Virus record (IMG/VR): IMGVR_UViG_3300028840_004512
Coordinates: 3,333 to 67,332 of that record
Reading direction: 5' to 3' (one strand)
DNA length: 64,000 nt
DNA from: a virus
Shown: positions 9,184-59,969 of the stretch, one piece after another
How positions within the stretch are numbered: the first letter of the stretch is position 1
Layout of the letters: every line of letters begins with the position of its first letter
The notes under the pieces: generated by a model
What the model was told of the DNA's origin: nothing
Seen by the model: the letters and a program-made list of their open reading frames with translations, nothing else
Database searches by the model: none
Position numbers and translations under genes: made by a program

Positions 9184-9603
9184 TTAGTTAAGGTCCTGTT
9201 CGTCCACCAACCCCTTCAGAGCCTTCAGGTGCTCCACAATGACACCAGGGGGCGGCGCCGGAGCGTCGGGCGGCGCCTCTAGCATCAGTACGACCCCCAC
9301 CGAGCGCCCCTCCACCACGCCCTCCAGATGAATACCATCCCGGTCCCAACGGGCCTCGGGGGGAGCATCAAACACAGCCAGGGCCGCCACCAGGTCTACC
9401 TGCGCCGCCGGAGCCCAGCGCTCCCCCTCAATCACAATCGGGGCGGGAAACAGGCCCACCACCCACAAGCCGTCGTCGTCCTGCTGCGCGAAGATCCCTA
9501 TAGGTAAGTCCGCATAAAGCGCAAAGCACCCTCCAAGACGCTCCCCCACCGACCTTACCCACTCCGGTAGCCTCAAAGGCTCGTAGCAAACCTCAGTCGA
9601 CAT
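9184..9603 (-). CDS. hypothetical protein
   Basis: 139-aa ORF; its ATG overlaps the end of the orphaned E2 3' fragment. Confidence 0.7.
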   Translation of the reverse strand: MSTEVCYEPLRLPEWVRSVGERLGGCFALYADLPIGIFAQQDDDGLWVVGLFPAPIVIEGERWAPAAQVDLVAALAVFDAPPEARWDRDGIHLEGVVEGRSVGVVLMLEAPPDAPAPPPGVIVEHLKALKGLVDEQDLN

Positions 9604-9730
9604 GTCTGTGCACCACCAATCTGTCCGTCCTTCGCGCCTCGCGAATGACGCTCGGGAGCGACTCTAGCGTAAACCACCTATCACCCTGCGTCCCCTGCTC
9701 AAAGTCGGGGTCGTCGTAGTGTGCTGTGAT
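9593..9730 (-). pseudogene. orphaned 3' end of the E2-like gene, displaced by an HNH insertion
   Basis: Translates ITAHYDDPDFEQGTQGDRWFTLESLPSVIREARRTDRLVVHRHVD*, homologous to the C-terminus of 10401..11321; 20-nt identity 9639-9658 vs 10447-10466; no start codon. Confidence 0.9.
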
Positions 9731-9735
9731 CGCCC

Positions 9736-10392
9736 TTATGCCCCCATCTTCCGACGCCGCCGCTCCAACGGCCGCGAGATGGCTTCCTCGTGTGACAACC
9801 CCCGCTTCAGCCGCGCCAGGATAGTAGTATCATTCAACCCCACCTCCTCCGCCCACGCAGCCACACACTGCGTCCGCCCAAAGGCCGTCAGAAGCCTGTT
9901 GTCTCGCCTGTTACGACCCTGCTCCTTCGGTGTAGCCCAGCGCACGTTCCCAGGTACATAGTCCCCCTCACCATCTATACGATCCAGTGTGTGCTTGTCC
10001 GAAGGGGCTTCGCCTACGTGTTCCAAGAAGCGTATAAAACCTTGGGCGCCTTGCCACTCCGCAGCTACCCGCACACCCTGCGCACCGTATCTCTCGAACA
10101 TGATGAAGGCGGGGTCGACGCACCTCCGTACCATCTGCCACCAGTGCCTATGCTCGTGAGTGTTGGACCTCCCGTGCACTGCCCGCCTCTTAGCTAAGGC
10201 TGCTGCCTGCTCACGATTGTAGCAGCCGCACGACACCGTACGCCCATACCGAAGATCGTACTTGTTGGTCCTCATAGCACCTCCGCAGTCACAACGACAT
10301 TCGATGTCCCTCACACCACCCACGCGGGTTATCTCTAACCGACCGAACCTATCCCCCACCAATACCCTCGTCTCTGCTCTCTCTGTAGCCAT
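9736..10392 (-). mobile_element. free-standing HNH-type homing endonuclease gene
   Basis: GDRFGRL..CRCDCG...VSCGC; HTLDRID....YVPGNVRWATPKEQGRNR. Confidence 0.88.
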
Positions 10393-10397
10393 AATGA

Positions 10398-10426
10398 ACG
10401 TTAGCTCACATGCCGGAGTACAACAA
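10398..10426 (-). promoter_or_regulatory. putative leaderless HNH promoter embedded in the E2-like 3' end
   Basis: TTGTTG-17bp-TAACGT, then 5 nt to ATG 10392. Confidence 0.55.
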
Positions 10427-11321
10427 GCTCGCCTCGCCTATCCGCTTCGCGAATGACGCTCGGGAGACTCTCCAACGTAAACCGAGTGTCCCCGCGAACA
10501 CCCGTGCCGTGATCCTCCAAACAGATACCGCTGTCAATCACGCGCATAGTGGTCCGAGAGCAAGTGCACTGAAAGCGTTGCTCACCCAGCCGAAAGGTTA
10601 CCACCATCTCGTCGCCACCTCCCCGCGCGGGCCTGTGATCTAGGTAGGTGGCGCCCCCAACAGCCAAGGAAGCCTTGGCTGCCTCGCCAAAGTCCTCCGC
10701 CGCCAGCTCTCGACGCCCTACCGCGTCCCCAAGCTGCTCCTGAATGCGACGCCGGCGCTCCTCACGCTCCCGGCGCTCCCGCTCCTCTTGCCGACGGCGC
10801 TCCACCTCAGCACGGTGCCACGTCTCGACCCGGAAGGCCGCGTCGAGCGCTGGCGCCACCTCGGAGATGCGGTCCACGGTCTCAGCTCGGTCCTGATATG
10901 CCTGTAGCACCTCATACTCGGCTCCTAACGGCATATCCTGCTCCACATAGACCAGGGGGCCATCCTCACAGAAACGGCCCGCTACGACCCGCTCAAAGCG
11001 GTCCAGGCCCTGCTCCACAAGGTGTACGCGGGGGAAGGTGGCGAGCATGGTGACGGGGTCCGAGACGACCACGTGGTCGCGCACCAGCCGGTCCCCTATG
11101 AGGTAGCCGCTCACGCGGTCCTTAAGCATATCGGGGTCAGCCTCTCCGCGGCCTTGTAGCGTGACGTTGCGGCCCGACACACCGAAGGTCCACCACCCAT
11201 GCTCACGCGGCCTGCGGCCCTGAATACGCCACGTACGGTCAAAGGTGCGCAGAGACCTACCGCCTACCCACGGAGCCGTGACGGTCTCCCCTTCCGTCTG
11301 CAGCAGGTCTCTCCAGCTCAT
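10401..11321 (-). CDS. divergent E2/UBC-like protein (C-terminal domain) with coiled-coil linker
   Basis: DSGICL...FTLESLPSVIREA resembles the E2 active-site G.ICL...tl..vl..i; lies between vWA and JAB/Ubl. Confidence 0.6.
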   Translation of the reverse strand: MSWRDLLQTEGETVTAPWVGGRSLRTFDRTWRIQGRRPREHGWWTFGVSGRNVTLQGRGEADPDMLKDRVSGYLIGDRLVRDHVVVSDPVTMLATFPRVHLVEQGLDRFERVVAGRFCEDGPLVYVEQDMPLGAEYEVLQAYQDRAETVDRISEVAPALDAAFRVETWHRAEVERRRQEERERREREERRRRIQEQLGDAVGRRELAAEDFGEAAKASLAVGGATYLDHRPARGGGDEMVVTFRLGEQRFQCTCSRTTMRVIDSGICLEDHGTGVRGDTRFTLESLPSVIREADRRGELVVLRHVS

Positions 11322-12058: not shown

Positions 12059-12077
12059 CTTCGCGCTCCGTGCTTCC

Positions 12078-25844: not shown

Positions 25845-25886
25845 AGCTTCTAGGCTACCGGCTCGAAGAGCCTGCTAGAGGACGGC

Positions 25887-26528
25887 CTAGACCAAGCGGC
25901 CCTCCGTTTCCACGTTTGTTTCATTATGTTCGGTAATGTAACGCATTAGCTTCCTCACACGATCAGGATCCTCTCGAAGAAGCCCCAGAGCCGTATTGCA
26001 ATGGTGACAGAGGACTGCCCGCACCTTCCCCGTCTTGTGACAATGATCCACAGGAGGCGCACCCCGCAAGGTAGTAGAGACATTCAGCCTATCCCCACAA
26101 GCCCCGCAACGACCCTCTTGCTTGCTCACCAGCTCTTCGTAAAAATCCAACGTAACGCCGTACTTGGTCTTCAGGTTAACGCCACGGACGCAGCGCTTGC
26201 AATAGGTATAAAGACCGTCCTTGTTCGTTCGACACTTGTGAAACTGCCCCGTCGGCTTAACGACACCGCAGCGTGCACAGGTCTTCTCTCCGGAAGCCGC
26301 CAAGCTCCCCTTACCCCTGCCGCGGTGATACTTACTCGACTGACGCCTCTGCAAACACCCACACGACTGGGTACGACCTTTGGTCAGGTCCTGTCCGTAA
26401 ACAGCCTTCGAGCTTCCGCAGTCACATACGACATTCCACCGCATATGCTTACCTGCGCCCTGACCGGCTGGAGACACAACCGTTAACATACCAAAACGAC
26501 GATCTGTTAGATCAACTCTAGGAGGCAC
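25887..26528 (-). mobile_element. free-standing endonuclease VII-type (HNH) homing endonuclease gene
   Basis: DLTDRRFGML..CDCG..SCGC; CGAC...VDHCHKTGKVRAVLCHHCNTALG; own promoter TTCGTC-17-TACCTT (26535-26563). Confidence 0.88.
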
Positions 26529-26579: not shown

Positions 26580-26912
26580 TCAAAGTACAGCGTCGATGTA
26601 GATCTCCTCCTCGTCCGTGTTGCCTGTCTCGGTGGCCACGGTCATGGTCACCACACCAGCCTGAACCAGCTGCTGCCACTCAATGCTGGGCTCGGGCATG
26701 TAGGCCGAGCGCTGGTAGCGCCAATCACGGTTATGCATGGGGAGCTGACTGTTGGCAGTGTCCGCCAGCGTACCGATGTGCGCAAAGGGGTAGGGTAGAG
26801 GATCGGTCACATTGCCGCCTGTAGCAAGCAGCGCAGAGGGTCCCGAGCCTCCAGTCATCTGCTCAAGCACGTTGATATCACGGCCAGAGGTGTTGGTAAT
26901 CGTCATTAGCAC
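26580..26912 (-). CDS. hypothetical virion-region protein
   Basis: 110 aa, RBS GAGG; ends in DAVL*. Confidence 0.75.
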   Translation of the reverse strand: MLMTITNTSGRDINVLEQMTGGSGPSALLATGGNVTDPLPYPFAHIGTLADTANSQLPMHNRDWRYQRSAYMPEPSIEWQQLVQAGVVTMTVATETGNTDEEEIYIDAVL

Positions 26913-27045: not shown

Positions 27046-27690
27046 ATGGCGAGACCTGTTGTAAATCTTAAAGGCAAGAGGTTCGGACGTCTAGTTGTTA
27101 TCGACCGAGCCGGATCTATTGAGTACGCAGGGGGTAATAAGGTAGCTGGATGGAAAGTCCACTGCGATTGCGGCGCGGAGAAAGTAGTTGCAGGAGCCAG
27201 CCTATCACAAGGAAAAACCTCGTCCTGCGGATGCTCCCGTCGACGAAAACGCCGTCCCGCCGAAAACATCCCAGGGAATAAACGCTGCTGCACATGCCAA
27301 GAGATAAAAGAGATCAAATCGTTCTACCGTCTGAAGTCCAGCCCAGATGGCAGATACCCGAACTGCATCCAATGCTACCGCAAAGCACGAAAACCCAAGA
27401 CCGCGCAGATAAGAGCCACCAGAAAAAAGTGGCACCGTAAGCTCCGGCTCGAAGTCCTCCAGCATTACGGAGGAGCGTGCGACTGCTGCGGAGAAGCCCA
27501 CATGGAATTCCTCGCCATCGACCACATCGACGGCGGAGGATCCCAGCACCGAAAGAAGATACGTGCCGACATTACGTGGTGGCTCAAAAAAGAAGGCTTC
27601 CCGGAAGGCTTCCGAGTCCTTTGCCACAATTGCAACCAGGCCCTCGGTCGCTACGGGTACTGCCCACACACAGCCCAAGGGCATAGCTAG
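27046..27690 (+). mobile_element. free-standing HNH endonuclease gene, inverted and lower in GC
   Basis: NLKGKRFGRL..CDCG..SCGC; CDCCGE...LAIDHIDG...RVLCHNCN. Confidence 0.88.
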
Positions 27691-33358: not shown

Positions 33359-33360
33359 CT

Positions 33361-33765
33361 CTAGCTCTCCTCCGATAACGCAACAACGCGCCGCCGTCGT
33401 GCCTCCACCGCATCTAACGATACCGCCCCTGGAGGCACGGCGAGAACCGCCTGCAGATGCAGATGCTCCCAAGGACACGCATCATCAAACCTAAAAAGGT
33501 CCGCACCCTCTGCCGGCACGGTGTCCACAACCAGTACGCCCACGCCGCCATCCGCCTTGACACGCACAAGGTAGACGTCAAGCCACATAACCTCCGTCTC
33601 GTGCGGCACTACCTCGTAGTCGTAGTCCTCCAGCAACACATAGCTCGTCCCATCAACCAGGAAGGAACCTGCTCCCACTGTGAGGGTCATGCCCGAGAAG
33701 ATGAGAGGTAGATCCACCTGCATGCGCCCTCCTAGGCTTTTGATTGTGACCTCGTTCACCGCCAT
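33361..33765 (-). CDS. fibre-associated small protein
   Basis: Paralog of 30487..30882, follows a fibre gene. Confidence 0.75.
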   Translation of the reverse strand: MAVNEVTIKSLGGRMQVDLPLIFSGMTLTVGAGSFLVDGTSYVLLEDYDYEVVPHETEVMWLDVYLVRVKADGGVGVLVVDTVPAEGADLFRFDDACPWEHLHLQAVLAVPPGAVSLDAVEARRRRVVALSEES

Positions 33766-42051: not shown

Positions 42052-43020
42052 CTACGCCGTCTGTAAAACTGTCGATTCATCCCAAGGCACAATCAGATCC
42101 CCTATCTGAGTGAACTGCTTCAAGGTACCCGTATCTGGGTATTGATCCCCATCGCTCCGAGCCTGTACCCCCCACCAGAAGTCTGACGGATGCCCCATGT
42201 GACCCCGGTAGCCCACAGTGTTCGCCACCAATCCCATAGGCATGATAGGGTTGTTGCTATCCCACTCGCTAGGAACACCCGGAGAGAGCAACACGGCCGT
42301 CTCTGTGGTACCCCGCGCCTCGTAGGTTAGATAAGGCTGAACAAGCGTTCCGCCTTCCTGCGCAAAGTTGTCTGTCTGGTCAGCCACGAAGCTAAACTCC
42401 GCACAGCTCGCCGTATTGCTGGCTGAAGTATCAAATCGCAGCAGCACTCCGTCAGTCCACCCCGAAACCTTGTCCACGACCACTTCCATCCGCCACAACG
42501 ACACCACATAGTTGGACCTATAGGTGATCACCATCGTAGCGTCTCCGTCCTCCGAATGTAGAGCCTGAATCTTTGTTGCAGTGGTCCCCCAATAACCGTC
42601 TACGGCGATCCAGTTCCAATCACTGTGGAGCACAATCTCATCGGCCGCTGTCGGACGAGCAGTTATCGTCCCAGCTCCGAAAGCCCCTGAAGGGGACCAC
42701 ACGATATCCAACCTGTAGGGAAAGAAGCGGTTCAGATCTATGCAAATCTCGTAGCCCTCACTACCCGGAGCCTTGAGTACAATCCAGCTGCGTGTAGACG
42801 TACCCCAGACCAGGTCTCCCCATACTGTCCAGTTGTCGTTGCTATCCGCCGTCGTACCATCAGAGGAGCTAGACACCGTCCAGGGAAGAATTGCGAACCC
42901 CTTAAGAGCGTTCTTAACCGAAAGTAGATGCTCGGCATAGTCCTGCGCTTGTGAGACTGCCGCCCCTCCCACCCTATTGAGATCAAACTGCCAGGTCTTC
43001 TGTAGTGTTGGTAGCGCCAT
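42052..43020 (-). CDS. virion structural protein-like
   Basis: 322 aa, Trp/Gly/Thr-rich beta protein. Confidence 0.75.
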   Translation of the reverse strand: MALPTLQKTWQFDLNRVGGAAVSQAQDYAEHLLSVKNALKGFAILPWTVSSSSDGTTADSNDNWTVWGDLVWGTSTRSWIVLKAPGSEGYEICIDLNRFFPYRLDIVWSPSGAFGAGTITARPTAADEIVLHSDWNWIAVDGYWGTTATKIQALHSEDGDATMVITYRSNYVVSLWRMEVVVDKVSGWTDGVLLRFDTSASNTASCAEFSFVADQTDNFAQEGGTLVQPYLTYEARGTTETAVLLSPGVPSEWDSNNPIMPMGLVANTVGYRGHMGHPSDFWWGVQARSDGDQYPDTGTLKQFTQIGDLIVPWDESTVLQTA

Positions 43021-43031: not shown

Positions 43032-43931
43032 CTATACCCAGGTAAGCCGCAACGAGGCCCGCTTGCAGGTGATAACGTCCGTAGGACCTGGGCTACCCGA
43101 CGAGTCGTCCAGGATAATCTGGACCTCGTAGTCGATCTCGTCGTCCTGCAGGTCCACGCCCCCACCGGTACCTATCGAGAGCACTCCAGACGACACAATC
43201 TCAGGCGTCTCCGACGAGGATGTTATCTCCGAACTCGTTACCGCCGCACCGTTGGTGAGATCATAAAGCCGCGCCTTGGCGGGCAGGGGTGTTGTCCCGT
43301 CGGTGGTCTCCAGCATCGCCTGGAAGCGCACCTCACGCGTTAGCCCGAGACCTCCGGGGTAGTAGATGCGGGGGTCAAACTTAAAACCCCCGTGACCCTC
43401 CCACGTCACGCTGTCGGTTATCTCGGCCCCCGCTATACCCACCACCTCGTACACCTGCGTCAGCACACGAGGACCGAAGATGTAGATGCTCTGCCCATCG
43501 CCTATCACGGAGCCGTTGCGCCAGATAACCGCGTCATCCAACCGCTGCGCAAGCACGATAGCATTGTCGCTAACCGGGATACGAGAGCCAGTCTCCGCCG
43601 CGATGCTCTGAGTAGACTGGGGTGCCCGCGTCAGCTCGACGTAGAGAAACTCCCCATCCTCCAGCGTCACCGTATCACCGCTAGTAGAGTTCGGGACGTA
43701 CCAGCGGTAGCCCGTCGTAGCTGCAACAGCCTGCAGCGGCTCGGCCCAGGTGAGGTCTCCCGAGGTAGCGTTGAAGCTCACCAGGCCGCCGCCAAAGAGG
43801 ACGAAGTTCTTATCCTCACGCGTGGTAAAGAAGCTGGCATCCACCGCATTGACGAAGGACACAAAGGAGTCCCAATACGGATCCGAAAACTGTTTAGGGT
43901 ACGGCCAATTTAGACGAGGAGAAGTAGGCAT
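43032..43931 (-). CDS. virion structural protein-like
   Basis: MPTSPRLNWPYP..., a fibre-like N-terminus. Confidence 0.8.
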   Translation of the reverse strand: MPTSPRLNWPYPKQFSDPYWDSFVSFVNAVDASFFTTREDKNFVLFGGGLVSFNATSGDLTWAEPLQAVAATTGYRWYVPNSTSGDTVTLEDGEFLYVELTRAPQSTQSIAAETGSRIPVSDNAIVLAQRLDDAVIWRNGSVIGDGQSIYIFGPRVLTQVYEVVGIAGAEITDSVTWEGHGGFKFDPRIYYPGGLGLTREVRFQAMLETTDGTTPLPAKARLYDLTNGAAVTSSEITSSSETPEIVSSGVLSIGTGGGVDLQDDEIDYEVQIILDDSSGSPGPTDVITCKRASLRLTWV

Positions 43932-44740
43932 CAGACCGCCTCCTTGAGCATCTCTTGAAAGTGCGTAGTCCAGTAAGCTCGCCGACCGTTAGCCCGTGCG
44001 TTGCACGCCTGACACAGCGCTATCAGATTAGATTCAGAGCAATTACCCTTATCGTAGTCAATGTGATGCACAGACAGGTTCTGACCACCCATCCCGTTGT
44101 AAGGCGAAGGGTATCGAATACGGTGATCCGCCTCGGCGAGACCACACTCCCGACAACAGTAACCGTCGCGCCGACGAATACGATCCTTCAGCTGATTGTT
44201 AAACTCTGGTGGATACGGATGAAAAGATACGCCCCCCCGCCAGTTAGGGTTCTTAGAGCCCACTTGATGAACCAGGTACGAAGCCGTCGTGCGGCCCACC
44301 CCCGATTGCCAAATAAACTTACTGACCGTCCCTTTAGGAACACCCAACTTGCGTGCAACGTCCCCAACCTTATCCCCCGCACCATAAAGCCGCAACGCCT
44401 CTGCCTCCCACGATCTGTCAGGCTCTCGCCGGTCGACGCCCCCTTCCTGAAGACGTAACAACACCAAGCGTTTAGACACCCCAACGCGTTTGGCAACCTG
44501 TTCCGCTGACAAACCGGACAGATACAACGCCGCCACCGTCTCCACCCCGACCTTACGACGCCCCTTCTGAATCTGCACAGGGTCTCGCAGCTTGACGCCC
44601 TCCTTAACCATGCGATACCTGACCGTAGAAATAGGCTTCCCAGCCAGCTCCGCAATCTGCTTGAGGGACTTCCCTGCATCGTAAAGCTCTTGCAGGAGCT
44701 CCTTCGGATACGGCCAATTAAGTCGCGGACTTGTGGGCAT
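43931..44740 (-). mobile_element. HNH homing endonuclease with HTH repeats, fused to a copy of the first 13 codons of the downstream gene
   Basis: Three HTH-like repeats, NPNWRGG, RRDGYCCRECG, SVHHIDY...NLIALCQACN; RBS AAGGAG before ATG 44740. Confidence 0.9.
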
Positions 44741-45919: not shown

Positions 45920-46570
45920 TTACGCGCCGGTAAAGACCACCTTGAGAGAGGAGCCTCCACCTTTGCTCACTCCCTGCCATTGGCAGGGCACCTCGGGGTC
46001 ATACTGCGACCCGGCCTTGCAGCCATCCTTCCCCGGCTTCTGGTCACACGGGGGGTTCTGTCGCGCGGTGCAGATGTCACAGCCAAGCGGATAGACCCCA
46101 AACACCTTCTCGTTGCCCTCGACCCCGTTTGGCGGCCCCAGCTTGGCCGCCTTACCGCCGTCCGTGGCCTCGATCCAAACCTTGTTGCTGTAGCCGTCAA
46201 CCAGGCTGACATCGACCACATCAAACCAGGCAGGGTTGTTGACATTGACCTCTGCCTTAGTCGACCCACAGCTGACGGGGGCGTCGAAAGCCATCGTCGC
46301 ATTGAAACGTTTGCCCGAGAGCGGCAGAGGCTGCGCGGCCCCCGCCTTGAGAGGGAAGGAGCAGTTGAGCTTGGCGGTCGCCTTGCAGAAGGGCCAGTCC
46401 GCCGGGAGCACCACCGAGTCCGCCCCAAAGGACAGATAGACCGTGGCGTCAGCCCCCGAGCTGTTGACCACCTCCACGGTTGTCGAGACAGCCGCGCCCG
46501 ACGGCGCCATCACCAGCGAGCTGCACGAGACCACCAAAAGCGCGAGGGTACAGGCTAGTAGGTACCGCAT
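45920..46570 (-). CDS. exported thaumatin-like protein (possible lipoprotein)
   Basis: Signal peptide LALLVVSC; TKAE...DVVDVSLVDGY thaumatin-like motif; Cys-rich. Confidence 0.65.
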   Translation of the reverse strand: MRYLLACTLALLVVSCSSLVMAPSGAAVSTTVEVVNSSGADATVYLSFGADSVVLPADWPFCKATAKLNCSFPLKAGAAQPLPLSGKRFNATMAFDAPVSCGSTKAEVNVNNPAWFDVVDVSLVDGYSNKVWIEATDGGKAAKLGPPNGVEGNEKVFGVYPLGCDICTARQNPPCDQKPGKDGCKAGSQYDPEVPCQWQGVSKGGGSSLKVVFTGA

Positions 46571-47424
46571 CAGAAGTTCTCCTTGTAGGCTTCCTTGTAG
46601 CCTTGCTTGATCATCGCTCGGATGTTCTCAGGGCTGAACTCTAGGGAGTCCAGCACCGAGTTGCGTGGCTGCTGGACCCTAATGTTAACGTCCGCATACT
46701 CCGGCTTAAGCTCCACGAAGGGGTTGTTAACCCCCAAGCACTTCAGGTCTGTGCGGATAATCTCATCCGAGCTGATGCCAAGGTACCTAAAGAGGTAGTG
46801 CTGCGTCAGCTTCCCCTCGGGGTCCCAATTGCTCGGCAGGTCGGGGTTAGACGCCATGACGACGTCTATCTCCTTAGCTCCCAGCTCGATCGCCGAGCGT
46901 AGCGGAGTTACGTTGCGCGCGCCGCCGTCTGTCCAGACATTGCCCCCGATACGCACGGGCTCAAAGACGACCGGATAGGCCGCGCTCGCGGCCACCCACC
47001 ACCCGAGGTTGTCGTGGCGCTCCGTCGCGAGCTTGTACTCGCCCGTGTTCCAGCTCACCGCCCCCACCCGTAGAAGCTTACCCGAGGTTCGCACAGACGC
47101 CTCGTTGAGATTGTCCAGGATGAGCTTGCGAAGCGGCTCGGTGTCGTACACGGACGCCTTACAGGTAACCACTGAGAGCGGCCAGCCTAGCCACCTCTCG
47201 AAGATCTTATCATTGTCGATAGTCAGCCAGAGGTCGTGAAGCCACCCCCACGCCTCGGCTGCCGAGCCCTTCGGAAACTGGGCGAGGCCCGCGGCGTTGA
47301 TGGCCCCAACGGAGACCCCACACAGAAGGTCATAATCACGCCCCTCGTCCTTCATTACCTTCTGAAGGACCCCTATCTGATAGGCGCCCCGCGCGCCGCC
47401 GCCGCTGAGTACGAGAGCTCTCAT
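46570..47424 (-). CDS. patatin-like phospholipase
   Basis: LVLSGGGARG, GVSVG, ASAAYP..F, DGG. Confidence 0.93.
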   Translation of the reverse strand: MRALVLSGGGARGAYQIGVLQKVMKDEGRDYDLLCGVSVGAINAAGLAQFPKGSAAEAWGWLHDLWLTIDNDKIFERWLGWPLSVVTCKASVYDTEPLRKLILDNLNEASVRTSGKLLRVGAVSWNTGEYKLATERHDNLGWWVAASAAYPVVFEPVRIGGNVWTDGGARNVTPLRSAIELGAKEIDVVMASNPDLPSNWDPEGKLTQHYLFRYLGISSDEIIRTDLKCLGVNNPFVELKPEYADVNIRVQQPRNSVLDSLEFSPENIRAMIKQGYKEAYKENF

Positions 47425-48242
47425 TCAACACCTACCCATGTTCTCCCCACCTGCACAAACCTCACCGAGTTGAGGCTAACACCCAACCGTTCCGCCAACG
47501 CTCTCCGCGACAGTTTCTCTGGGTTCCGACGAATGTACCTAACGTCCTCCAACGTTAAGGGAGAAAGCTTCTCCCTGTGCGCCACAGACAACCGCCGACC
47601 CTTCGTATGTTGGTTGCCTAGATTAGCACGCCGCAAAGCCTCCTTGTTCTCTGACGACATCCTAGTCCCCCGCATACGCGCCGCTAACTGCCCCCGCACC
47701 TCAGCAGTATGGGTACGCCCATAGAAAGGATTACCCTCACCAGAGAACCTAGCACTAAGCTTTGCCCTGGCGCTCTCCAACGCCTCGGGCGTGTGACTCC
47801 TACCATAAAACGGATTCTTCTCCCCCTTCGTAGCCCGTGATACCGCACGCCGGTGGGCGTCTGACCGAGGCTTACCTAGACAGGCTGCAGACATCCGCCT
47901 CCTGGTCTCTGCACTTACCTCATATCCTTCCCCACCCTCCGTGCAGTTGTAGCCGCGGGGGCCTAGAGTCCCCAACTCTGAGATCCAACGAGACTCCGCC
48001 TCGTTCAGCGCCTCCAATGACGCGCACTCCTCTAAGACGACAAACTCAAACGCGGTCCTCGTGTACTTCCTGAGAGCCCTATGGAAGGGCACCTCGGAGC
48101 CTTCTCTGACTGCATCGACGTGACCCTTAATCCGCTTCTCCAGGGGCTGTATTGTCTGCCCCACGTACCGCTTGCCGCTGACGCTACAAGTGGCGCAATA
48201 GATCACCCCGTAAGGCTTGTTCTCTTTCTCAAGTGCTCTCAT
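47421..48242 (-). mobile_element. GIY-YIG homing endonuclease with NUMOD3 repeats
   Basis: GVIY...KRYVGQT...R..H...E...GYN; KNPFYGRSHT repeats; start MRAL at 48242. Confidence 0.9.
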
Positions 48243-51391: not shown

Positions 51392-52636
51392 CTAATCCAC
51401 GTAGTATTGCACCCCATAAACGAAGTCCAGCGACCCCGATCCACTAACGAGCGTAGCCCGCAGCAGCACGTCGCCCACCGCCGGTGTGACATCATTACCC
51501 AGTATGTCCTTGAACGTCACCCCGGTGTTAACTGCCGTGACCCCAGTCTCCTTGTAGCCGTCGGTGATCTTCGTAAAGTCGCCGCCCGAGACAGTAAGGT
51601 CAGCAAACATAGGGAACAGCACCTCCACAGTCTCGGAGAAGAGACGCATCGTATCCTCCAGCGAGAGGTAGCCCAAGGCCAAGACACCTAGGTCCGCATC
51701 CGTCCCATCTATCCGCAGAACCACCGCAAGCTCCGCCGTCCACAGCGAGCCCGAGTTACTCTTCCCGACCCGGCCCGACACCGCTGTCAGATACGCCTGC
51801 GTCCCCGACGTGTGCTTGTAGCCCGAGCCGTTCAGGTCAATAAGCACGTAGTAGGTCGTGGCCGACACACTGCTCTGCGAAAAGGTCAAGCGGACAAGAA
51901 GATCTCGGTCGTCAATAAAGTCGTGCTTGACCCGCAGCGTGCCGTCCGTCTCGGTCAGCAGCGTCTGGACGTTGGTGCCATCCTGCCCCGCCACCAACAC
52001 AGGGTTGCCGGCGGGGGTAGCCCCATCCGCTGCCCCTCCAATGACCTCCTGCCTGCCTATTGTGTCGGTTTTGAACGTCTGGACGTTGGTGCCGTCTTGC
52101 CCCGCAGTAAGCACCGGGTTCTCCGTCGGCGCCGCCCCGTCTGCATCCGTCCCCTCGACCTTCCAGGGAGGCGTACCCTGCTGGATGGTCCACGTCCCGC
52201 TCTGCGACACAGACACCGCGCTCTGGTCCGACGCAATCACCACCGGCACCGACGCGGCCATCGCCTTCTGCCCGACGGTCGGTGTGGTCGATCCTAACCA
52301 CGCGCCGAGGTTCACATCGAGCCGAGCGCCTACCAGCGCCGCAGGTAGCTGGTCCGTGTCTACCGTTATCGAGCCTCCCCCATCCTCAATAGGGATTGCT
52401 TGGCCTCCAGATACCCCCTGAACGCTCAGAACGCCACCAGCCGGGCTGCCGGCCGTCCCAGCTCCCGCGACCACCTGGCGCCCGCTAGAGTCCACCACAA
52501 TGAAGCGCGACGTCGTGCCGTCCACCCCCACGCTCACGAAGCCGCGAGCATCCGTTGGGAGCGTCGTCGCATCCTTCAGCGCCACCTCAACCGAATCGGT
52601 CGAGTACAGGATCCTGGCTACAGTGTCTGCGCTCAC
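51392..52636 (-). CDS. fibre-like virion protein with internal repeats
   Basis: DGA.P..NPVL.AGQDGTNVQT twice; GTG start overlaps the HNH stop. Confidence 0.75.
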   Translation of the reverse strand: MSADTVARILYSTDSVEVALKDATTLPTDARGFVSVGVDGTTSRFIVVDSSGRQVVAGAGTAGSPAGGVLSVQGVSGGQAIPIEDGGGSITVDTDQLPAALVGARLDVNLGAWLGSTTPTVGQKAMAASVPVVIASDQSAVSVSQSGTWTIQQGTPPWKVEGTDADGAAPTENPVLTAGQDGTNVQTFKTDTIGRQEVIGGAADGATPAGNPVLVAGQDGTNVQTLLTETDGTLRVKHDFIDDRDLLVRLTFSQSSVSATTYYVLIDLNGSGYKHTSGTQAYLTAVSGRVGKSNSGSLWTAELAVVLRIDGTDADLGVLALGYLSLEDTMRLFSETVEVLFPMFADLTVSGGDFTKITDGYKETGVTAVNTGVTFKDILGNDVTPAVGDVLLRATLVSGSGSLDFVYGVQYYVD

Positions 52637-53226
52637 GCGATAGTCCTCCAAGACTCTCCGCGGAGTATCGCTCCAACAGTACCGTGGGTCACTCCGAACT
52701 CCGACCCAATAGCACGCTGAGACAAACCCGCGGCGGCAAGCTGCTTGATCCGGACCACGTCTCCAGACGTTAGCTTAGCACCACTATGGTCCTCCCCACG
52801 CCGAGTCCGCTCGGGGCACGTGTACCGCCCATTCCGCCTACCATATGGACGCCGCTCAGGGTGCTTAACAAGACCGTTCCTAGCACCCCTAGCCACCGCC
52901 TCGGGACACGTCACACTACCATGCCGCATACCACGCGCTGTCCGCCCTTTTCGATCCCGATCTCGGTTGTTCTCTACCACCGTACCGACAAACAGATGAG
53001 CCGGATTAACGCACGAAGGGTTATCACACGTGTGGCAAACACACAGACCGTTAGGAATATCCCCAAAGGTAAGAAACCAAGCCAAACGCGACGCTACCCA
53101 AACTTCCCCCTGATACCTAACAGACCCGTACCCCTTCTTGCTACGAGCTGCCGTCCAGGGCCAGCAATCCTCCGGCGCCCCCCGTCGACACCTGGCCCAA
53201 AAATCCTCTGGAGTGCTACGCCTCAC
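52633..53226 (-). mobile_element. HNH homing endonuclease (HNH_3-type) with C-terminal HTH
   Basis: DCWPW...GYG...ASRLAW...VCHTCDNPSCVNPAHL..GT..EN..D; AKLT..DV..I. Confidence 0.92.
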
Positions 53227-53717
53227 GATATCGCCCTAACCCGCGAAGTCTCGAAGATCCCACTATACGTGATAGTGTCTGTTATTGTCTCAACTACACT
53301 GCTGCCGTCCGTGTCATATACGCGCCATTGTATCGTATTGGTCGTCTTGTTGGCGTTATAGGTGATAGTCTTGTCGACGATCTTCTTTAGCTTTAAGCTG
53401 CTCTCCCACCACGTAACGGTCGTCGGGAAGGGGTCAGCTGCCGGGAGAGTCTCACGGTAGGCGCCCGAGGTGAACCCACCGAACGGGCCACCCACCCCAT
53501 CCGCAAGGTGGATGCCCTGGCGCAGCGTCTTATGCTCAGCCGCTGTGATGCCCCCACCACCGGAGCGCGGGTCATACTCTCCGGTGCTGTCGTAGAAGCT
53601 GAAGCGGCCGCCCACATAGCGAATCTCGCCCTCCGCCGTAGCGACCACGGTCGAGGCGGTGTAGATCGCTGTGTCCTCGTAGAGAGCCCCAGCGCGTCTA
53701 TCCGGTGTTCTGCCCAT
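53223..53717 (-). CDS. virion-region protein
   Basis: 164 aa, beta-rich C-terminus. Confidence 0.75.
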   Translation of the reverse strand: MGRTPDRRAGALYEDTAIYTASTVVATAEGEIRYVGGRFSFYDSTGEYDPRSGGGGITAAEHKTLRQGIHLADGVGGPFGGFTSGAYRETLPAADPFPTTVTWWESSLKLKKIVDKTITYNANKTTNTIQWRVYDTDGSSVVETITDTITYSGIFETSRVRAIS

Positions 53718-56547: not shown

Positions 56548-56633
56548 ACTTTAGCGCTCCCTATCTGTTGGGTATTTGCCTAGCTGCTACGTCCTTCGAA
56601 CCAACCTACGTCCGCTATCGCCATCGTACACCA

Positions 56634-58901
56634 TCAGGAGGAGGTCTGCACTACCTCGGGCAATACCGTAACCGAGTCTGGAGTCTTGGTGATGACCTCA
56701 GACTCCTCAATGACCAGGTTGCCGTCAGAATCCAGCTTATCCGTCTGCAAGGTGCTGCTCAGTAAAGTAGTGTAGCCAGAGATCGTCACGTTGGCAAAGC
56801 TCACGCCCTCGACCGCTAGGATAACGTCCATCAGATCTGAGACGTAGAGGGACACCCCAAACTCCCTGTCCTTCAGCACGCCATCAATCGCAGTCTCCCC
56901 CGCTGTGCGCACCTGCTCAAGGGAGTATCCGATATCCACCCCAACACGAGCGGTGATCCACGGGTATACCAGGAACTTCCCGCCCGAGACCACCTCCACG
57001 GTCTGCGTGACCTCCTTCCTAGCCGTAAGGTAGGTCTCAAGGGAGTCTATGAGCCCGTTGCTGGGCTCGGCGTAGAAGCCCGCCGCATCACGCGTGAGAA
57101 CGGGGACCGTTACCAGGTTCGCCTTGCAATCGGCTGACAGGATCTTGTCCAGGTGCTCGTCTATGGTATCCAGAGCCAGCGTAACCGTCGCCGCAGCGTT
57201 GTTGGCCAAGGCCGGGTCGATGGTATCCGCAACGTCCGAGAGGGTTACCTGGAAGCTCTTAAACAGCCCTGTGCTGTCGGACGGCGTGGTGCTGTCGTAG
57301 TAGCCAATGACCACGTCCCCAGCAGCCCGCGCATCCTCCAGGCTCTTGAGGTAGCTGTCCGCACCGTCCAGCTGGATAGCCGTCTTCGAGAGCCCTATCT
57401 TATCTACCTCGTCCGTGATGAGGCCCCCGGCCGCCACCTGCGAATCCGCCGCTCCTCGCATCGTGGCGGTCTGAGAGATAATGTCATCCTGATGGCCGTC
57501 GATAGTGTCCAGGTAGACCTTCAAGGCATCCTTGGTTGGGTCTGTCAGCTGATCTGCCCCCGTAGCGATCGCGTCAATAGCCGCCTTACCATCCGTCACC
57601 TCCACCTTGGCGGCATTAGCCGACACGTCCACATCCAGGGACAGGTTGCGGTTGCCGCGAATGCCCGAGATGATAGCCGTGTTGTTGGTGTCGATGGTGT
57701 TCATCGACGTGACGACGTTGTCGAGCGCCGTCGTGATGGTTGAGGAGTAGGAGAGCAGCAGGTTGAGCAGTCCCGTGGTAGCTGTGGTGGCCGCTGTTAT
57801 CTCACCACGGATGATATCCGTCGCGCCCTCCAGGGCGCTTGTGATCTCCAGGATAGCGTCCTGCAGTACCAGGTCCGTCGCTGCCGACCGCGAGGAGATA
57901 GCCTTGGCCACCGCCACACGCCCATATACCGGGTCTGCATAGGAGCCCGCCAGCGCGTCGTAGTCCTCCCCGGTGACCGCCACCCGGCGGGAGTTAAACA
58001 CCCGCCCGGCAAATGCCTTAGCGCGGTCGATGCTCTCCAGGTCATCACCGCCCGAGCTCTTGGCGCCATTGTTGATGGTCAGGTCAACCGTCTCCCCCAC
58101 CACCACAAGCGGCGTGACCACGTCCTGGATCGTATCCTTGGCCACAATCCCCGCCTTCCCCGCAGTCGCAACATAGGTGACCTCAATCGAGGCGTTGGTA
58201 GCAGGGATATTGCCAGCCGAGCCGTCCCCAAAACGAAGGGTTGGAGGATCGTCGTTGTAGCCCACCTCGTACTGGTCGGTCTCGTCGAAGGTGAGGAAGT
58301 CCTCCTCATCCCAGCTCGCCCCATCGACCTTCACCTCCACCGAGCCAGAGGCCACATACCGCTCATCAGGGACACGGCTCAGCTCGAAGACCTGGTTTGC
58401 TGTTCCGTCTGAGGTGAAGGTCTCAGTCGTGGTCTCACCCTCGTACACAGGGATGAGCTTGGATGTTCCTGCCGTCTGCTCTGCCGGGGAGAACTCGACG
58501 GCCTTTCCCGCCTCAAAGATAAGGTCGTTAGGCCCCTGAAACTGTAAGCCCTCGGTGATCTCCACCGTGAAGGTCTTCGCCACGGCCACACTGACCGTTA
58601 GGTCCGTGGAGGACGCCACCGCACCGCCCATTTTGTAGCCCAGCTGTCGACAGATACGCGAGACAGCCCTCCGGGTCCTAGCGGTCTCCAGGTAAACCTC
58701 AGTGGCTCGACGGTCGAGGTAGAAGCTGAGCGAGTCTAGACCAAAAGCGATGAGGTCCAGAAGCATCATCCCTAAGCTGGCCAGCGCGAAGTCGTTGTAA
58801 TAGGCCGCAAACTTGACCTGCAGGCGCGCGCGGAGGTCGTCAACGTGGGAGTCGAAGTCGTAAGAAATAAAACGGACGCGGTTAATCGACGCGGTGGCCA
58901 T
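56634..58901 (-). CDS. baseplate J/gp6-like wedge protein with a long helical insertion
   Basis: DFDS...L, YLDRRATEVYLETA, FGDG..G..P, GGDD.ES....K, RVAVT.EDY. Confidence 0.9.
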   Translation of the reverse strand: MATASINRVRFISYDFDSHVDDLRARLQVKFAAYYNDFALASLGMMLLDLIAFGLDSLSFYLDRRATEVYLETARTRRAVSRICRQLGYKMGGAVASSTDLTVSVAVAKTFTVEITEGLQFQGPNDLIFEAGKAVEFSPAEQTAGTSKLIPVYEGETTTETFTSDGTANQVFELSRVPDERYVASGSVEVKVDGASWDEEDFLTFDETDQYEVGYNDDPPTLRFGDGSAGNIPATNASIEVTYVATAGKAGIVAKDTIQDVVTPLVVVGETVDLTINNGAKSSGGDDLESIDRAKAFAGRVFNSRRVAVTGEDYDALAGSYADPVYGRVAVAKAISSRSAATDLVLQDAILEITSALEGATDIIRGEITAATTATTGLLNLLLSYSSTITTALDNVVTSMNTIDTNNTAIISGIRGNRNLSLDVDVSANAAKVEVTDGKAAIDAIATGADQLTDPTKDALKVYLDTIDGHQDDIISQTATMRGAADSQVAAGGLITDEVDKIGLSKTAIQLDGADSYLKSLEDARAAGDVVIGYYDSTTPSDSTGLFKSFQVTLSDVADTIDPALANNAAATVTLALDTIDEHLDKILSADCKANLVTVPVLTRDAAGFYAEPSNGLIDSLETYLTARKEVTQTVEVVSGGKFLVYPWITARVGVDIGYSLEQVRTAGETAIDGVLKDREFGVSLYVSDLMDVILAVEGVSFANVTISGYTTLLSSTLQTDKLDSDGNLVIEESEVITKTPDSVTVLPEVVQTSS

Positions 58902-59919
58902 TAGATACTCCGGTAGTCAGCGCGGTCACCTCGTCCCAGCCCCGCTGGAGACGTGAACGGACGACGCGATGGTTTATGCCTAGGCGCTCGGCCCACTCCT
59001 GAAGACACCGAGTCTCCCCACCCATAGCGATGAGACGATTGTTCCGCCGGTTGCGCTGCTGTGTCCGCGAAACGGCCCACCGGCAATTGTCTGGAGAGTA
59101 GCCCAGATCCGCGTCAATACGATCCAATGAGTGCTTCGCAGAGGGCCTAGGACCCACATCCCCTAAAAAACACTCAAACGACCCCTCCCACTCCGAACAT
59201 ACCTGGACACCGCGACCACCGTACAGAGGAAAGTCCTTGTTGGTGGGGTTGAGGCAACGGTTCCGCATAAACAACCACGCCCGATATTCAGCTGGAAACT
59301 GCTTCCTGACCGAGACGCTTCGCTCGAAGGTTCCGTGTAACGGAGGGGTCTCTAGAGCCTTTTCAACCGACCACCCCGCTTGGAGCCTAGCCGCTACAGT
59401 AGTCGGAGCGAGCCCCGCCTCCCGAGCCAGCTGAGACAAACACTTGACCTCGCCCTTATACCTAAACTCTCGGTTAGACCTTATGTTCTGCGTCTGCTGT
59501 CTCCGAGAGGCCCACCGACAGTTGTCCGGCTCGTAGTGACCCGCAGAGTCAATACGGTCCAGCGTGGCCTCTGGATAGGGCTTGCGCCCCATGTCCGCCA
59601 AAAAGCCCTCGTAGGAGGCCGCCCAACGTTCTGCTACGCACACGCGCCCGCGAGACAGCTTGGCTCGGCGCTTCATGAGCTGCCAAGCCCGATACTCGGG
59701 GACATCGAAAGACTCCCCATGCTTTCTCATCCCCTGACCGACGGTGATACACCCGCAGGACTGCGTATTACCGCTCCGCAGGCTGTCCGTGCGGACCTCC
59801 AATCTAGCGCCGCAATCACACAGTACTTCCCAAGCCGTACAAGGTCCCTGGTTGGGGGCGCGCTCCCCTACAAGTAGCCTACCAAACCGCTGCCCTGTAA
59901 GGTCCAACCGCGGAGGCAT
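58882..59919 (-). mobile_element. homing endonuclease with two tandem HNH-like domains
   Basis: DLTGQRFGRL..CDCG..SCGC; LDRID....Y.PDNCRWA twice. Confidence 0.9.
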
Positions 59920-59921
59920 GG

Positions 59922-59969
59922 CTACTGCACCCCCACGTACCGAACCCTGTTTACGCTAGCTGTCGCCAT
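59922..59969 (-). pseudogene. orphaned 5' end of the baseplate J gene
   Basis: MATASVNRVRYVGVQ* versus baseplate J MATASINRVRFI. Confidence 0.85.

What the first reader, a model, noticed from the sequence alone, without database searches (positions are those of the whole stretch)
9593..59969. Intron-less homing endonucleases that land in gene ends and supply a recoded replacement end (5 clear and 1 weak of 7)
Seen: a recoded duplicate of the neighbouring gene terminus flanks HNH 9736 (E2 C-terminus, about 45 codons), EndoVII 25887 (AVL*), HNH 43931 (MPTSPRLNWPYPK), GIY-YIG 47421 (MRAL), double-HNH 58882 (MATAS.NRVR) and weakly HNH 52633 (R.I.*). Amino acids are kept while codons differ. No intron or intein features were seen. 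Known: similar end-replacement by homing endonuclease genes has been reported in fungal mitochondrial genes; phage free-standing HEGs are usually described as intergenic. Inference: several unrelated nuclease families use the same strategy here, where the element destroys its target site yet restores the gene with a cleavage-resistant copy.
Basis: partly seen in the sequence, partly recalled or inferred. Interest (0 to 1): 0.88.

Follow-up and report, generated by a model that had tools for sequence, protein, structure and literature searches.

The report
Homing endonucleases with duplicated gene ends
Several selfish nuclease genes in this phage sit just inside the ends of ordinary genes, each leaving a short dead copy of the gene end on one side and a working, differently spelled copy on the other, which shows how such elements can invade tightly packed genomes without breaking genes.

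Summary
The window is 64 kb of a 67-kb phage. All seven nuclease ORFs are homing-endonuclease-like.

The duplicated gene ends are real, but graded rather than "5 clear + 1 weak":
- Three are clear: 44, 13 and 13 codons.
- Two are very short but exactly placed: 4 codons, and 3 codons plus stop.
- One is weak and one HEG has none.

Relatives lacking the nuclease carry one copy of the gene end at four sites. At the baseplate site the orphan resembles the empty alleles more than the working copy does. At the 44-codon site the two copies are different natural allele types.

The architecture recurs elsewhere:
- 5 of 54 loci of the same HNH family in IMG/VR.
- 1 of 10 GIY-YIG loci in cultured phages. 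In Bacillus phage BCP78 the orphan is base-identical to two of nine HEG-less relatives and 35-38 of 39 in five more.
- 1 of 11 free-standing HEGs in T4, mobC/nrdG.

Best reading: intron-less homing into diverged genomes. One-sided homologous repair leaves the recipient's gene end as an orphan and installs the donor's. Cleavage resistance is untested. This is a new variant of a known kind.

The parts
10401..11321 (-). S1 host gene (306 aa, no family hit). Its last 44 codons (10404-10535) are the working C-terminal end, of the short-loop allele type.
   Evidence: No Pfam or PHROG hit. Intact homologues in 5 of 5 relatives. This end best matches L021 and L022, 70-72%.
9736..10392 (-). S1 homing endonuclease gene (218 aa), a single-module relative of the double nuclease at S6.
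   Evidence: PHROG 374 and 3377 HNH endonuclease, E 8e-49. 36-43% identical to both halves of the S6 protein. Absent at this place in 5 of 5 relatives.
9593..9727 (-). S1 orphan: 44 codons plus stop of a second, long-loop-type C-terminus of the host gene. It starts 8 bases after the nuclease stop.
   Evidence: 30 of 44 residues identical without gaps to the end of the L023 homologue, the only relative with the six-residue longer loop.
26580..26912 (-). S2 upstream gene (110 aa, no family hit). Its last three codons plus stop (26580-26591) are the ones repeated.
25887..26528 (-). S2 endonuclease VII-type homing endonuclease gene (213 aa).
   Evidence: Pfam PF02945, E 1.5e-20. PHROG 2633.
25875..25886 (-). 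S2 possible orphan: the same three residues plus a stop, directly after the nuclease stop and in its frame.
   Evidence: Positional null 5 of 7832 ordered pairs. No relatives found to test it.
27046..27690 (+). Seventh homing-endonuclease-like gene, on the opposite strand, with no flanking duplicate.
   Evidence: PHROG 2255 and 374. No duplicate at its junctions.
44702..44740 (-). S3 orphan: first 13 codons of the downstream gene with its ribosome-binding site. They now serve as the first 13 codons of the nuclease ORF.
43931..44740 (-). S3 homing endonuclease gene (269 aa from the ATG): several helix-turn-helix modules plus HNH. Its last codons hold the ribosome-binding site of the displaced gene, and its stop overlaps that gene's start by one base.
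   Evidence: Pfam HTH families and PF01844. PHROG 8446. Junction read. An internally deleted remnant sits at the same place in G001.
43032..43931 (-). S3 host gene (299 aa, no family hit). Working start at 43893-43931.
   Evidence: 65% identical homologue in G001. No Pfam or PHROG hit.
47421..48242 (-). S4 GIY-YIG plus NUMOD3 homing endonuclease gene (273 aa). Its first four codons (48231-48242) are the orphan start of the downstream gene, and its ATG overlaps the stop of the upstream gene by four bases.
   Evidence: Pfam PF01541 and PF07460. PHROG 314. Junctions.
46570..47424 (-). S4 host gene, a patatin-like phospholipase (284 aa). Working start at 47413-47424, overlapping the nuclease stop by four bases.
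   Evidence: Pfam PF01734, E 1.9e-29. Empty alleles in G001, L017 and L019 join the upstream gene directly to this gene.
53223..53717 (-). S5 upstream gene (164 aa).
   Evidence: Homologues in G001, L002 and L003 are followed directly by the next gene.
52633..53226 (-). S5 HNH_3 homing endonuclease gene (197 aa). Its last codons weakly resemble the upstream gene's last codons. Four-base stop/start overlaps at both junctions.
   Evidence: Pfam PF13392. PHROG 1872 and 59. Junctions.
51392..52636 (-). S5 downstream gene. Its likely GTG start at 52634-52636 overlaps the nuclease stop.
   Evidence: Alignment of its start with G001, L002 and L003.
59922..59969 (-). S6 orphan: first 13 codons of the baseplate gene plus two codons and a stop. 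It forms a small leader ORF ending two bases before the nuclease start.
   Evidence: Nearer to the empty alleles than the working copy is: 26 and 28 of 39 bases against 22 and 18.
58882..59919 (-). S6 double HNH-like homing endonuclease gene (345 aa). Its last 20 bases overlap the start of the displaced baseplate gene.
   Evidence: PHROG 3377 and 374, E about 1e-85, two stretches. 69% identical copy at the same place in G001. Absent in L002, L003 and L007.
56634..58901 (-). S6 host gene, a baseplate wedge (gpJ-like) protein of 755 aa. Working start at 58863-58901.
   Evidence: PHROG 219. Relatives.

Best explanation
These are free-standing homing endonuclease genes that spread by intron-less homing.

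Proposed mechanism (inferred):
- In its donor genome the nuclease gene lies beside a host gene.
- The enzyme cuts the nuclease-free allele a few to a few dozen codons inside that gene's end.
- When the element enters a genome too diverged on the outer side, the break is repaired by homologous copying on the inner side only. The donor's gene end and the nuclease gene are copied in, and the outer side is joined illegitimately.
- The recipient's own gene end, from the terminus to about the cut site, is left behind as an orphan. The working gene becomes a chimera with a donor-type end.
- From then on the orphan serves as a homology arm, and the whole cassette can home normally.

Consequences:
- The codon differences between the copies are mostly ordinary divergence between donor and recipient.
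- That divergence probably also protects the working copy from re-cutting and prevents deletion of the element by recombination between the repeats.
- The orphans are put to use. N-terminal orphans give the nuclease the host gene's start codon and ribosome-binding site (S3, S4) or a coupled leader ORF (S6). The nuclease's 3' end carries the new translation start of the displaced gene.

What is shown: the anatomy, the single copy in nuclease-free relatives, orphan resembling the empty allele, two allele types, and recurrence elsewhere.

What is inferred: the cut position, the one-sided repair, immunity, and expression coupling.
For: (1) All seven ORFs are nuclease-family members.

(2) Presence is patchy at the same locus, and nuclease-free relatives hold one copy of the gene end:
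- S1: 5 of 5.
- S4: 3 of 3.
- S5: 3 of 3.
- S6: L002, L003 and L007 viewed directly, and L004-L006 and L008 by coordinates.

(3) S6. Orphans match the empty alleles in 12-16 of the 18 bases next to the insertion point; working copies match in 7-11 of 18. The working copies of the window and of G001 share derived codons.

(4) S1. The orphan is of the long-loop allele type seen in L023 (30 of 44 residues, no gap). The working end is of the short-loop type seen in L021 and L022.

(5) S3. The orphans of the window and G001 share codon choices that the two working copies lack. G001 holds an internally deleted remnant of the same nuclease between the two copies.

(6) Outside the window, same HNH family. 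5 of 54 IMG/VR loci exceed the maximum (44) of 300 cross-locus controls. Host genes are a GT2 glycosyltransferase, gp25, a metallophosphoesterase and an unknown protein.

(7) Outside the window, GIY-YIG family. 1 of 10 cultured-phage loci, BCP78.
- 9 of 9 fetched relatives lack the nuclease gene.
- The orphan's 13 codons and the 45 bases upstream are base-identical to TsarBomba.
- The working copy is nearer to the BCP8-2 allele, from another genus.

(8) T4. mobC begins with the first 7 codons of nrdG. This is 1 of 11 free-standing nuclease genes; the others score 19-29 against 40. 4 of 4 fetched mobC-free relatives have one copy.

(9) In all nine duplicate pairs measured, most identical residues use different codons. 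None of the nine is a near-identical DNA repeat.

(10) Logan contigs of two runs bridge every S3-S6 junction without a difference. Both runs may be the source, so this is not independent support.
Against: - No cleavage, homing or expression data exist for any of these enzymes. The cut site, the immunity and the one-sided repair are all inferred.
- S2 and S4 are 3-4 codons long and S5 is weak. S4 could equally be a microhomology used in joining.
- No truly empty allele was found for S3, and no relatives at all for S2.
- At S3 and at T4 mobC the sequence does not say which copy is native. In T4 the empty alleles are marginally nearer to the working copy: 19-20 against 17-18 of 21 bases.
- "Empty" relatives may be precise losses rather than never-invaded alleles.
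- A 20-base block is identical in both S1 copies. Simple donor/recipient divergence does not predict this.
- Most loci of the same nuclease families show no duplicate: 49 of 54, 9 of 10 and 10 of 11. The architecture is one outcome, not the rule.
Confidence: 0.72

Rival explanations
1. Expression capture only. The nuclease genes copied or fused to the host gene's start region because that gives them a ribosome-binding site and start codon. The duplicates would then be selected for translation and would have nothing to do with the cut site or with a donor allele.
For: At S3, S4, BCP78 and T4 mobC the nuclease ORF starts with the host gene's own start codons. At S6 the orphan is a leader ORF ending at the nuclease start. 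The T4 review notes overlapping and coupled starts for free-standing endonucleases (passages read).
Against: - It does not explain the C-terminal cases, S1 (44 codons downstream of the nuclease) and L077.
- It does not explain why the S6 and BCP78 orphans match the empty alleles while the working copy is the divergent one.
- It may well be true as a secondary use of the orphan.
Confidence: 0.12
2. In-situ duplication first. A short tandem duplication of the gene end arose by slippage or unequal recombination, the copies then drifted apart, and a nuclease gene later landed between them or merely persisted there.
For: Tandem paralogues and repeats are common in this window. A 20-base identical block inside the S1 pair shows the copies can exchange sequence.
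Against: - None of the nuclease-free relatives examined has a duplicate without a nuclease gene.
- The S1 copies differ by an indel that matches two natural allele types.
- In BCP78 the orphan is identical to a relative while the working copy is of another genus's type. Drift from one ancestor inside one genome cannot produce that.
Confidence: 0.08
3. Chance resemblance or an artefact of ORF reading or assembly. The short matches mean nothing.
For: In the general junction score, S4, S2 and S5 do not stand out from 87 genes.
Against: - S3 and S6 rank 1st and 2nd of 87, and S1 has E 9e-10.
- Positional nulls for S4 and S2 are about 1 in 1000 per ordered pair.
- The same architecture is present in G001.
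- Contigs of two runs bridge the junctions.
Confidence: 0.05

Closest known systems
Intron-less homing by free-standing endonucleases of T4 (seg and mob genes)
   Same: Free-standing GIY-YIG and HNH genes between or beside conserved genes. Patchy presence among relatives. Cleavage inside a neighbouring gene, co-conversion of flanks, and overlapping or coupled starts (T4 review PMC2988022, passages read).
   Different: The review describes them as intergenic and does not use the word stem "duplicat" at all (0 occurrences). Here the insertion is inside the coding end and leaves an orphan. T4 itself has one such case, mobC/nrdG with 7 codons. I did not find it described in the texts I could search. 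The 2005 SegH/Hef paper was not held.
MobA / gene 60 cassette of T4-like phages
   Same: An HNH homing endonuclease cassette that enters a coding sequence. It carries an insert-derived, divergent stand-in for the host sequence around the nick site, and its insertion protects against self-cleavage (bioRxiv 10.1101/2022.08.31.505936, passages read; that text cites Bonocora 2011, which I did not read).
   Different: MobA splits the gene into two working ORFs with added tails and a translational bypass, and deletes 55-75 bases of host sequence. Here the gene stays in one piece, nothing is bypassed, and the replaced host sequence is kept as an orphan.
Partial gene-end duplications beside free-standing endonuclease genes in fungal mitochondria
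   Same: C-terminal duplicates of atp6 and cob flanked by GIY-YIG and LAGLIDADG ORFs (PMC6279837). GIY-YIG genes overlapping atp9 or duplicated along with its N-terminus, and partial duplications of atp6 and cox1 creating pseudogenes (PMC7487136).
   Different: Those are organelle genomes with mostly LAGLIDADG or GIY-YIG genes, and in the passages read they are described as duplication or degeneration. Here the genomes are phages, HNH-type nucleases are also involved, empty alleles are in hand, and the orphans are re-used for translation.
Genes-in-pieces insertions (mobE in nrdA of phage Aeh1)
   Same: A free-standing endonuclease gene inside a coding region with host function kept (T4 review).
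   Different: There the host protein is made as two polypeptides. Here it is one polypeptide with a replaced end.

Membership tests
Free-standing homing endonuclease gene (intron-less homing) | Encodes a nuclease of a homing-endonuclease family with DNA-binding modules | tested here: met
   Pfam: EndoVII, HNH, HNH_3, GIY-YIG plus NUMOD3, HTH modules. PHROG nuclease families for 7 of 7.
Free-standing homing endonuclease gene (intron-less homing) | Present or absent at the same locus among related genomes | tested here: met
   S1 absent in 5 of 5. S4 absent in 3 of 3. S5 absent in 3 of 3. S6 present in 1 and absent in 3 viewed plus 4 by coordinates. S3 degraded remnant in the one relative. S2 and the seventh gene have no relatives.
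Free-standing homing endonuclease gene (intron-less homing) | Not inside a self-splicing intron or an intein | tested here: met
   0 Rfam families at gathering score in 64 kb. Each nuclease ORF has its own start and stop. No RNA data were available.
Free-standing homing endonuclease gene (intron-less homing) | Cuts the nuclease-free allele site-specifically and is copied in by repair | not testable with these tools
   Needs enzyme assays or mixed infections.
MobA-type coding-sequence cassette | Splits the host gene into two functional ORFs with added tails and a translational bypass | tested here: not met
   Host genes are full length beside the nuclease gene. Orphans are 3-44 codons long. No coding gap was seen in the ORFs.
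MobA-type coding-sequence cassette | Carries a divergent stand-in for the host sequence at the target | tested here: met
   The working ends differ from the orphans and from the empty alleles.
Fungal-mitochondrion-type gene-end duplication beside an endonuclease gene | Partial duplicate of the neighbouring gene's terminus flanking the endonuclease gene | tested here: met
   S1, S3 and S6 clear; S4 and S2 short.
Group I intron or intein with endonuclease | Ribozyme core, or in-frame protein-splicing domain | tested here: not met
   One search gave no intron family. Stops separate the nuclease ORFs from the host genes, except for the orphan fusions, which lie outside the working gene.

The most novel reading that the evidence does not exclude
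Replacement of a gene end, with an orphan left behind, is a general further way for free-standing homing endonucleases to enter coding sequence. It would stand beside introns, inteins, gene splitting and translational bypass. It would be used by unrelated nuclease families in phages from T4 to Bacillus and environmental phages. Two things would follow. The inner edge of each orphan would mark the enzyme's cut site, so target sites of thousands of uncharacterised endonucleases could be read from genome sequence alone. And each event would graft a foreign end onto a host gene, making homing a direct source of chimeric phage genes.
Probability: 0.4. Interest if true: 0.72.

Novelty: new variant of a known kind. 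Interest (0 to 1): 0.6.

Why it matters
Free-standing homing endonucleases are usually described as intergenic passengers. These cases show a simple route by which they settle inside the ends of genes in genomes with no intergenic room, while keeping the gene whole.

If the orphan edge marks the cut site, it gives a sequence-only way to predict target sites of uncharacterised endonucleases. Such enzymes are of interest as rare-cutting tools.

It also explains some small unannotated ORFs and odd N-terminal extensions in phage annotations.

Finally, it documents homing as a source of chimeric gene ends, that is, mosaicism at sub-gene scale. The BCP78 and T4 mobC cases make the idea testable in culturable systems.

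Tried and rejected
CLOSE RELATIVES
- Megablast of 20 kb of the window against cultured phages found nothing.
- tblastn with the baseplate protein found only distant hits.

LOCUS SCANS WITH SINGLE PROTEINS
- S1, S3 and S2 found no relatives.
- S4 found only G001.
- Alignments as queries reached further for S1 and S4, but not for S3.
- No truly empty S3 allele and no S2 relatives were obtained.

JUNCTION SCORES
- The general junction score does not lift S4, S2 or S5 above background.
- In G001 only the S6-type nuclease gene stands out, apart from a low-complexity antisense ORF.
- L074's high score is two tandem nuclease genes, not a host-gene duplicate. I dropped it from the count of positives but kept it in the 54.

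ASIDE
- PADLOC gave nothing for the S1 host gene or its window neighbours. Only the G001 E1-like protein hit.

SEQUENCING RUNS
- No RNA holder was listed.
- Contigs of runs X1 and X2 showed no joint that skips a nuclease gene. Contigs drop rare variants, so this says nothing about nuclease-free variants.

LITERATURE (five answered searches)
- I read passages by word search in PMC10448857, PMC6279837, PMC5626475, PMC2988022, PMC12724721, PMC8351571, PMC2248197, PMC7487136, PMC3468402 and bioRxiv 10.1101/2022.08.31.505936.
- I found no description of orphan gene ends flanking phage free-standing endonuclease genes.
- The search covers open-access text only. Supplements were closed. The 2005 SegH/Hef paper was not held.

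TOOLS NOT AVAILABLE
- The look-up of encoding contigs is marked closed and I did not call it.

NOT DONE
- No structure, complex or atlas jobs were run. None bore on the question.

Full report
WHAT THE WINDOW IS

The window is bases 3333-67332 of a 67,332-base virus record. It is about 60% G+C, and nearly all genes lie on the minus strand, tightly packed. No cultured phage is close at the DNA level. The best relative is an 81,879-base IMG/VR contig, here G001, with 50-73% protein identity in shared genes.

The region from 43 to 64 kb holds baseplate and tail-fibre genes.

Seven ORFs are homing-endonuclease-like:
- Pfam finds endonuclease VII, HNH, HNH_3 and GIY-YIG with NUMOD3 in four of them.
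- PHROGs places all seven in nuclease families.
- No Rfam family reaches its gathering score in the whole window.
- Each nuclease is its own ORF.
So introns and inteins are not in play.

THE OBSERVATION, SITE BY SITE (coordinates checked)

S1. The 306-residue gene at 10401-11321 is followed by an HNH-like gene at 9736-10392. Eight bases after that gene's stop comes a 44-codon second copy of the first gene's C-terminus (9596-9727, stop 9593-9595).
- A blind self-comparison of all frames found it at E 9e-10.
- Over the last 34 codons, 23 residues and 63 of 102 bases are identical.

S3. The HNH gene at 43931-44740 begins with the same 13 residues as the next gene, 43032-43931. That is 13 of 13 residues but only 29 of 39 bases.

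S6. Between the gp25-like gene and the double HNH-like gene (58882-59919) lies a 15-codon ORF (59922-59969). Its first 13 codons repeat the start of the baseplate gene 56634-58901.

Control for these sites. I compared the two junctions of each of 87 ORFs in all frames. S3 and S6 ranked first and second. The next two were true tandem paralogues.

S4. The GIY-YIG gene and the patatin-like gene behind it share their first four codons.

S2. The three last codons and stop of the gene before the EndoVII gene recur directly after the EndoVII stop.

Both S4 and S2 are too short for the general score. In position-specific nulls they occur in 12 and 5 of 7832 ordered gene pairs. Most of the 12 are S3, S4, paralogues or homologous nucleases.

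S5 is weak, and the seventh nuclease gene has nothing.

My count is therefore three clear, two short but exactly placed, one weak and one none.

RELATIVES WITHOUT THE NUCLEASE GENE

S6.
- L002, L003 and L007 run from the gp25-like gene straight into the baseplate gene.
- G001 has the same nuclease gene, the same orphan and the same overlapping new start.
- L004-L006 and L008 also leave no room for a nuclease gene, judged from match coordinates only.
- The window orphan matches the two close empty alleles in 26 and 28 of 39 bases; the working copy matches in 22 and 18.
- In the 18 bases next to the insertion point the figures are 12-16 for the two orphans and 7-11 for the two working copies.
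- The working copies of the window and G001 share the same changed codons there.

S1.
- Five of five relatives have an intact gene followed directly by the next gene, with one copy of the C-terminus.
- The two window copies are not one sequence that drifted. The orphan carries a six-residue longer loop that only L023 has, and it matches L023 in 30 of 44 residues without a gap.
- The working end is of the short-loop type of L021 and L022, 70-72%.

S4.
- G001, L017 and L019 join the tail-fibre-like gene directly to the patatin-like gene.
- Besides two silent changes in the four codons, the window's working copy uses the other serine codon box at codon 7.

S5. G001, L002 and L003 are empty, with the two genes overlapping or nearly so.

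S3.
- The only relative, G001, is not empty. Between two copies of the gene start it holds a 41-codon ORF.
- Its first 14 residues align to residues 1-14 of the window nuclease, and its last 26 align to residues 243-268.
- It is an internally deleted remnant.
- The orphans of the two genomes share codon choices that the two working copies lack.

S2. No relatives were found.

IS IT PECULIAR TO THIS PHAGE?

HNH family in IMG/VR. With an alignment of the S6, G001 and S1 nucleases I fetched 54 loci of this family and scored the two junctions of each.
- Three hundred cross-locus pairings gave a maximum of 44 and a 99th percentile of 36.
- Above that lie L055 (97), L041 (80), L077 (75), G001 (52) and L052 (48).
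- L074 (62) is two tandem nuclease genes and is not counted.
- Reading the four new loci with Pfam gave:
  - N-terminal orphans of a family-2 glycosyltransferase, of a gp25 baseplate protein, and of an unknown 509-residue protein.
  - One C-terminal case, in which the orphan end of a metallophosphoesterase is fused in frame to the end of the nuclease. By analogy this makes the weak S5 reading more plausible.

GIY-YIG family in cultured phages. Of ten loci taken from a spread of 378 matching records, one scored 63: Bacillus phage BCP78.
- Nine of nine fetched relatives at 76-86% identity lack the nuclease gene.
- BCP78's orphan, 13 codons, together with the 45 bases upstream, is base-for-base identical to TsarBomba.
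- After codon 13 the orphan runs into the nuclease.
- BCP78's working copy differs from TsarBomba at 15 of 39 bases (my count from the rows). It is nearer to the BCP8-2 allele of another genus: 30 of 33 bases in codons 10-20.

T4. Of 11 free-standing nuclease genes, one scores 40 and the others 19-29.
- That one, mobC, begins with the first seven codons of nrdG, with two silent differences.
- Four of four fetched mobC-free relatives have a single copy, and the nrdD stop overlaps the nrdG start.

A REGULARITY

In all nine duplicate pairs measured, most identical residues are spelled with different codons. The counts are 9 of 11, 7 of 8, 2 of 3, 11 of 23, 6 of 10, 14 of 15, 8 of 13, 10 of 14 and 6 of 9. 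The search was made at protein level and would have found identical DNA repeats, yet none of these pairs is one.

MECHANISM

The simplest account of all this is intron-less homing across a divergence gap.
- The enzyme cuts the nuclease-free allele a short way inside the gene next to its own gene.
- The inner break end copies the donor's gene end and the nuclease gene by homology.
- The outer end, lacking usable homology, is joined illegitimately and keeps the recipient's own gene end.
- The result is orphan (recipient), nuclease gene, working end (donor).

This account explains several things:
- why the orphans match the empty alleles;
- why the two copies look like two natural alleles;
- why synonymous sites are near saturation while residues are kept;
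- why the duplicates are short and sit at gene ends;
- why both N- and C-terminal forms exist.

Divergence between the copies should also keep the enzyme from cutting its own genome. It should keep recombination between the repeats from deleting the element. The G001 remnant, deleted inside the nuclease gene rather than between the repeats, fits that.

The orphans are re-used:
- At S3, S4, BCP78 and mobC the nuclease ORF starts on the host gene's own start.
- At S6 in both genomes the orphan is a leader ORF that ends at or just before the nuclease start.
- The displaced genes start on signals embedded in, or overlapping, the nuclease's last codons.

The cut sites, the one-sided repair, the immunity and the translational coupling are all inferences.

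RIVALS

- Expression capture explains the N-terminal fusions. It does not explain S1 or L077, nor the match of orphans to empty alleles.
- Duplication first, nuclease later, is contradicted in two ways. No nuclease-free relative examined has a duplicate. And BCP78 has an orphan identical to a relative beside a working copy of another type.
- Chance is excluded for S1, S3 and S6. It remains possible for S5 and, less so, for S2.

WHAT IS KNOWN

- The T4 review describes free-standing endonucleases as intergenic. It notes overlaps with neighbouring ORFs and promoters embedded in the nuclease genes, and it never uses the stem "duplicat".
- The MobA/gene 60 cassette carries a divergent stand-in for host sequence and protects against self-cleavage, but it splits the gene and needs a bypass.
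- Fungal mitochondrial genomes show partial duplicates of atp6, cob, cox1 and atp9 ends beside free-standing endonuclease genes.
- A study of Xanthomonas phages found no conserved flanks around HNH genes.
- In five text searches and ten papers read by word search I found no account of orphan gene ends around phage free-standing endonucleases. The library holds open-access text only, supplements were closed, and one directly relevant paper was not held.

VERDICT

"Recoding" is better read as the donor lineage's own spelling of the gene end.

This is a new variant of a known kind. It is unusually concentrated in this phage, and examples exist in T4 and a Bacillus phage that can be tested at the bench.

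Noticed in passing
window 10446-10466 and 9638-9658: A 20-base block is identical in the working and orphan copies at S1. Most other shared residues use different codons, and the five relatives spell this stretch differently. It could be a short gene-conversion patch, or a DNA site kept in both copies, such as a binding site of the nuclease 54-74 bases upstream of its start.
   Followed up: partly
window 2065-2649, 8542-9171, 10401-11321; L021-L025: The S1 host gene sits in a neighbourhood conserved in relatives. It includes a weak Prok-JAB protein, a small protein ending in glycine, and an E1-like protein. The G001 homologue of the E1-like protein hits PADLOC E1-E2 models. This may be a phage-borne ubiquitin-like conjugation set.
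   Followed up: partly
L020 2872-2997 (G001 79152-79277): An internally deleted 41-codon remnant of the S3-type nuclease gene, still flanked by both copies of the host gene start. It looks like a snapshot of endonuclease decay.
   Followed up: yes
L080 42906-43538 (T4 mobC) and 42895-42916 (nrdG start): T4 mobC starts with the first seven codons of nrdG. mobC-free T-even phages have one copy.
   Followed up: yes
L086 871-1548 (Bacillus phage BCP78): The annotated GIY-YIG homing endonuclease begins with the first 13 codons of the downstream tail protein gene. Nine relatives lack it. Megablast matches of several relatives start only 17-42 bases into the BCP78 tail gene, as expected if its 5' end is foreign.
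   Followed up: yes
window 28448-30484, 30890-33478, 33775-36228: Three paralogous tail-fibre-like genes of 678-862 residues in a row, 37-46% identical.
   Followed up: no
window 21180-21683/21687-22229; 41531-41743/41747-42049; 45165-45626/45662-45898; 4519-4941/5822-6265: Four pairs of neighbouring paralogous small genes, 47-73% identical.
   Followed up: no
window 52019-53152: In run X2 the contig covering the S5 nuclease gene has depth 5.4, against 7.4 and 9.2 beside it, and contigs break at both its ends. A nuclease-free minority variant is one possible cause. Contigs cannot show it.
   Followed up: no
L024 4911-5861 and L023 4802-5746: G001 and L023 carry a 314-316-residue ORF with helix-turn-helix-like repeats between the small glycine-ending protein and the E1-like gene. 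L021, L022 and L025 lack it. It may be another mobile nuclease gene.
   Followed up: no
L074 2483-3691: Two nuclease genes of the same HNH family in tandem.
   Followed up: no
window 9184-9603: A 139-residue ORF with no family hit lies between the S1 orphan and the JAB-like gene and is absent from G001. It may have arrived with the nuclease cassette or separately.
   Followed up: no
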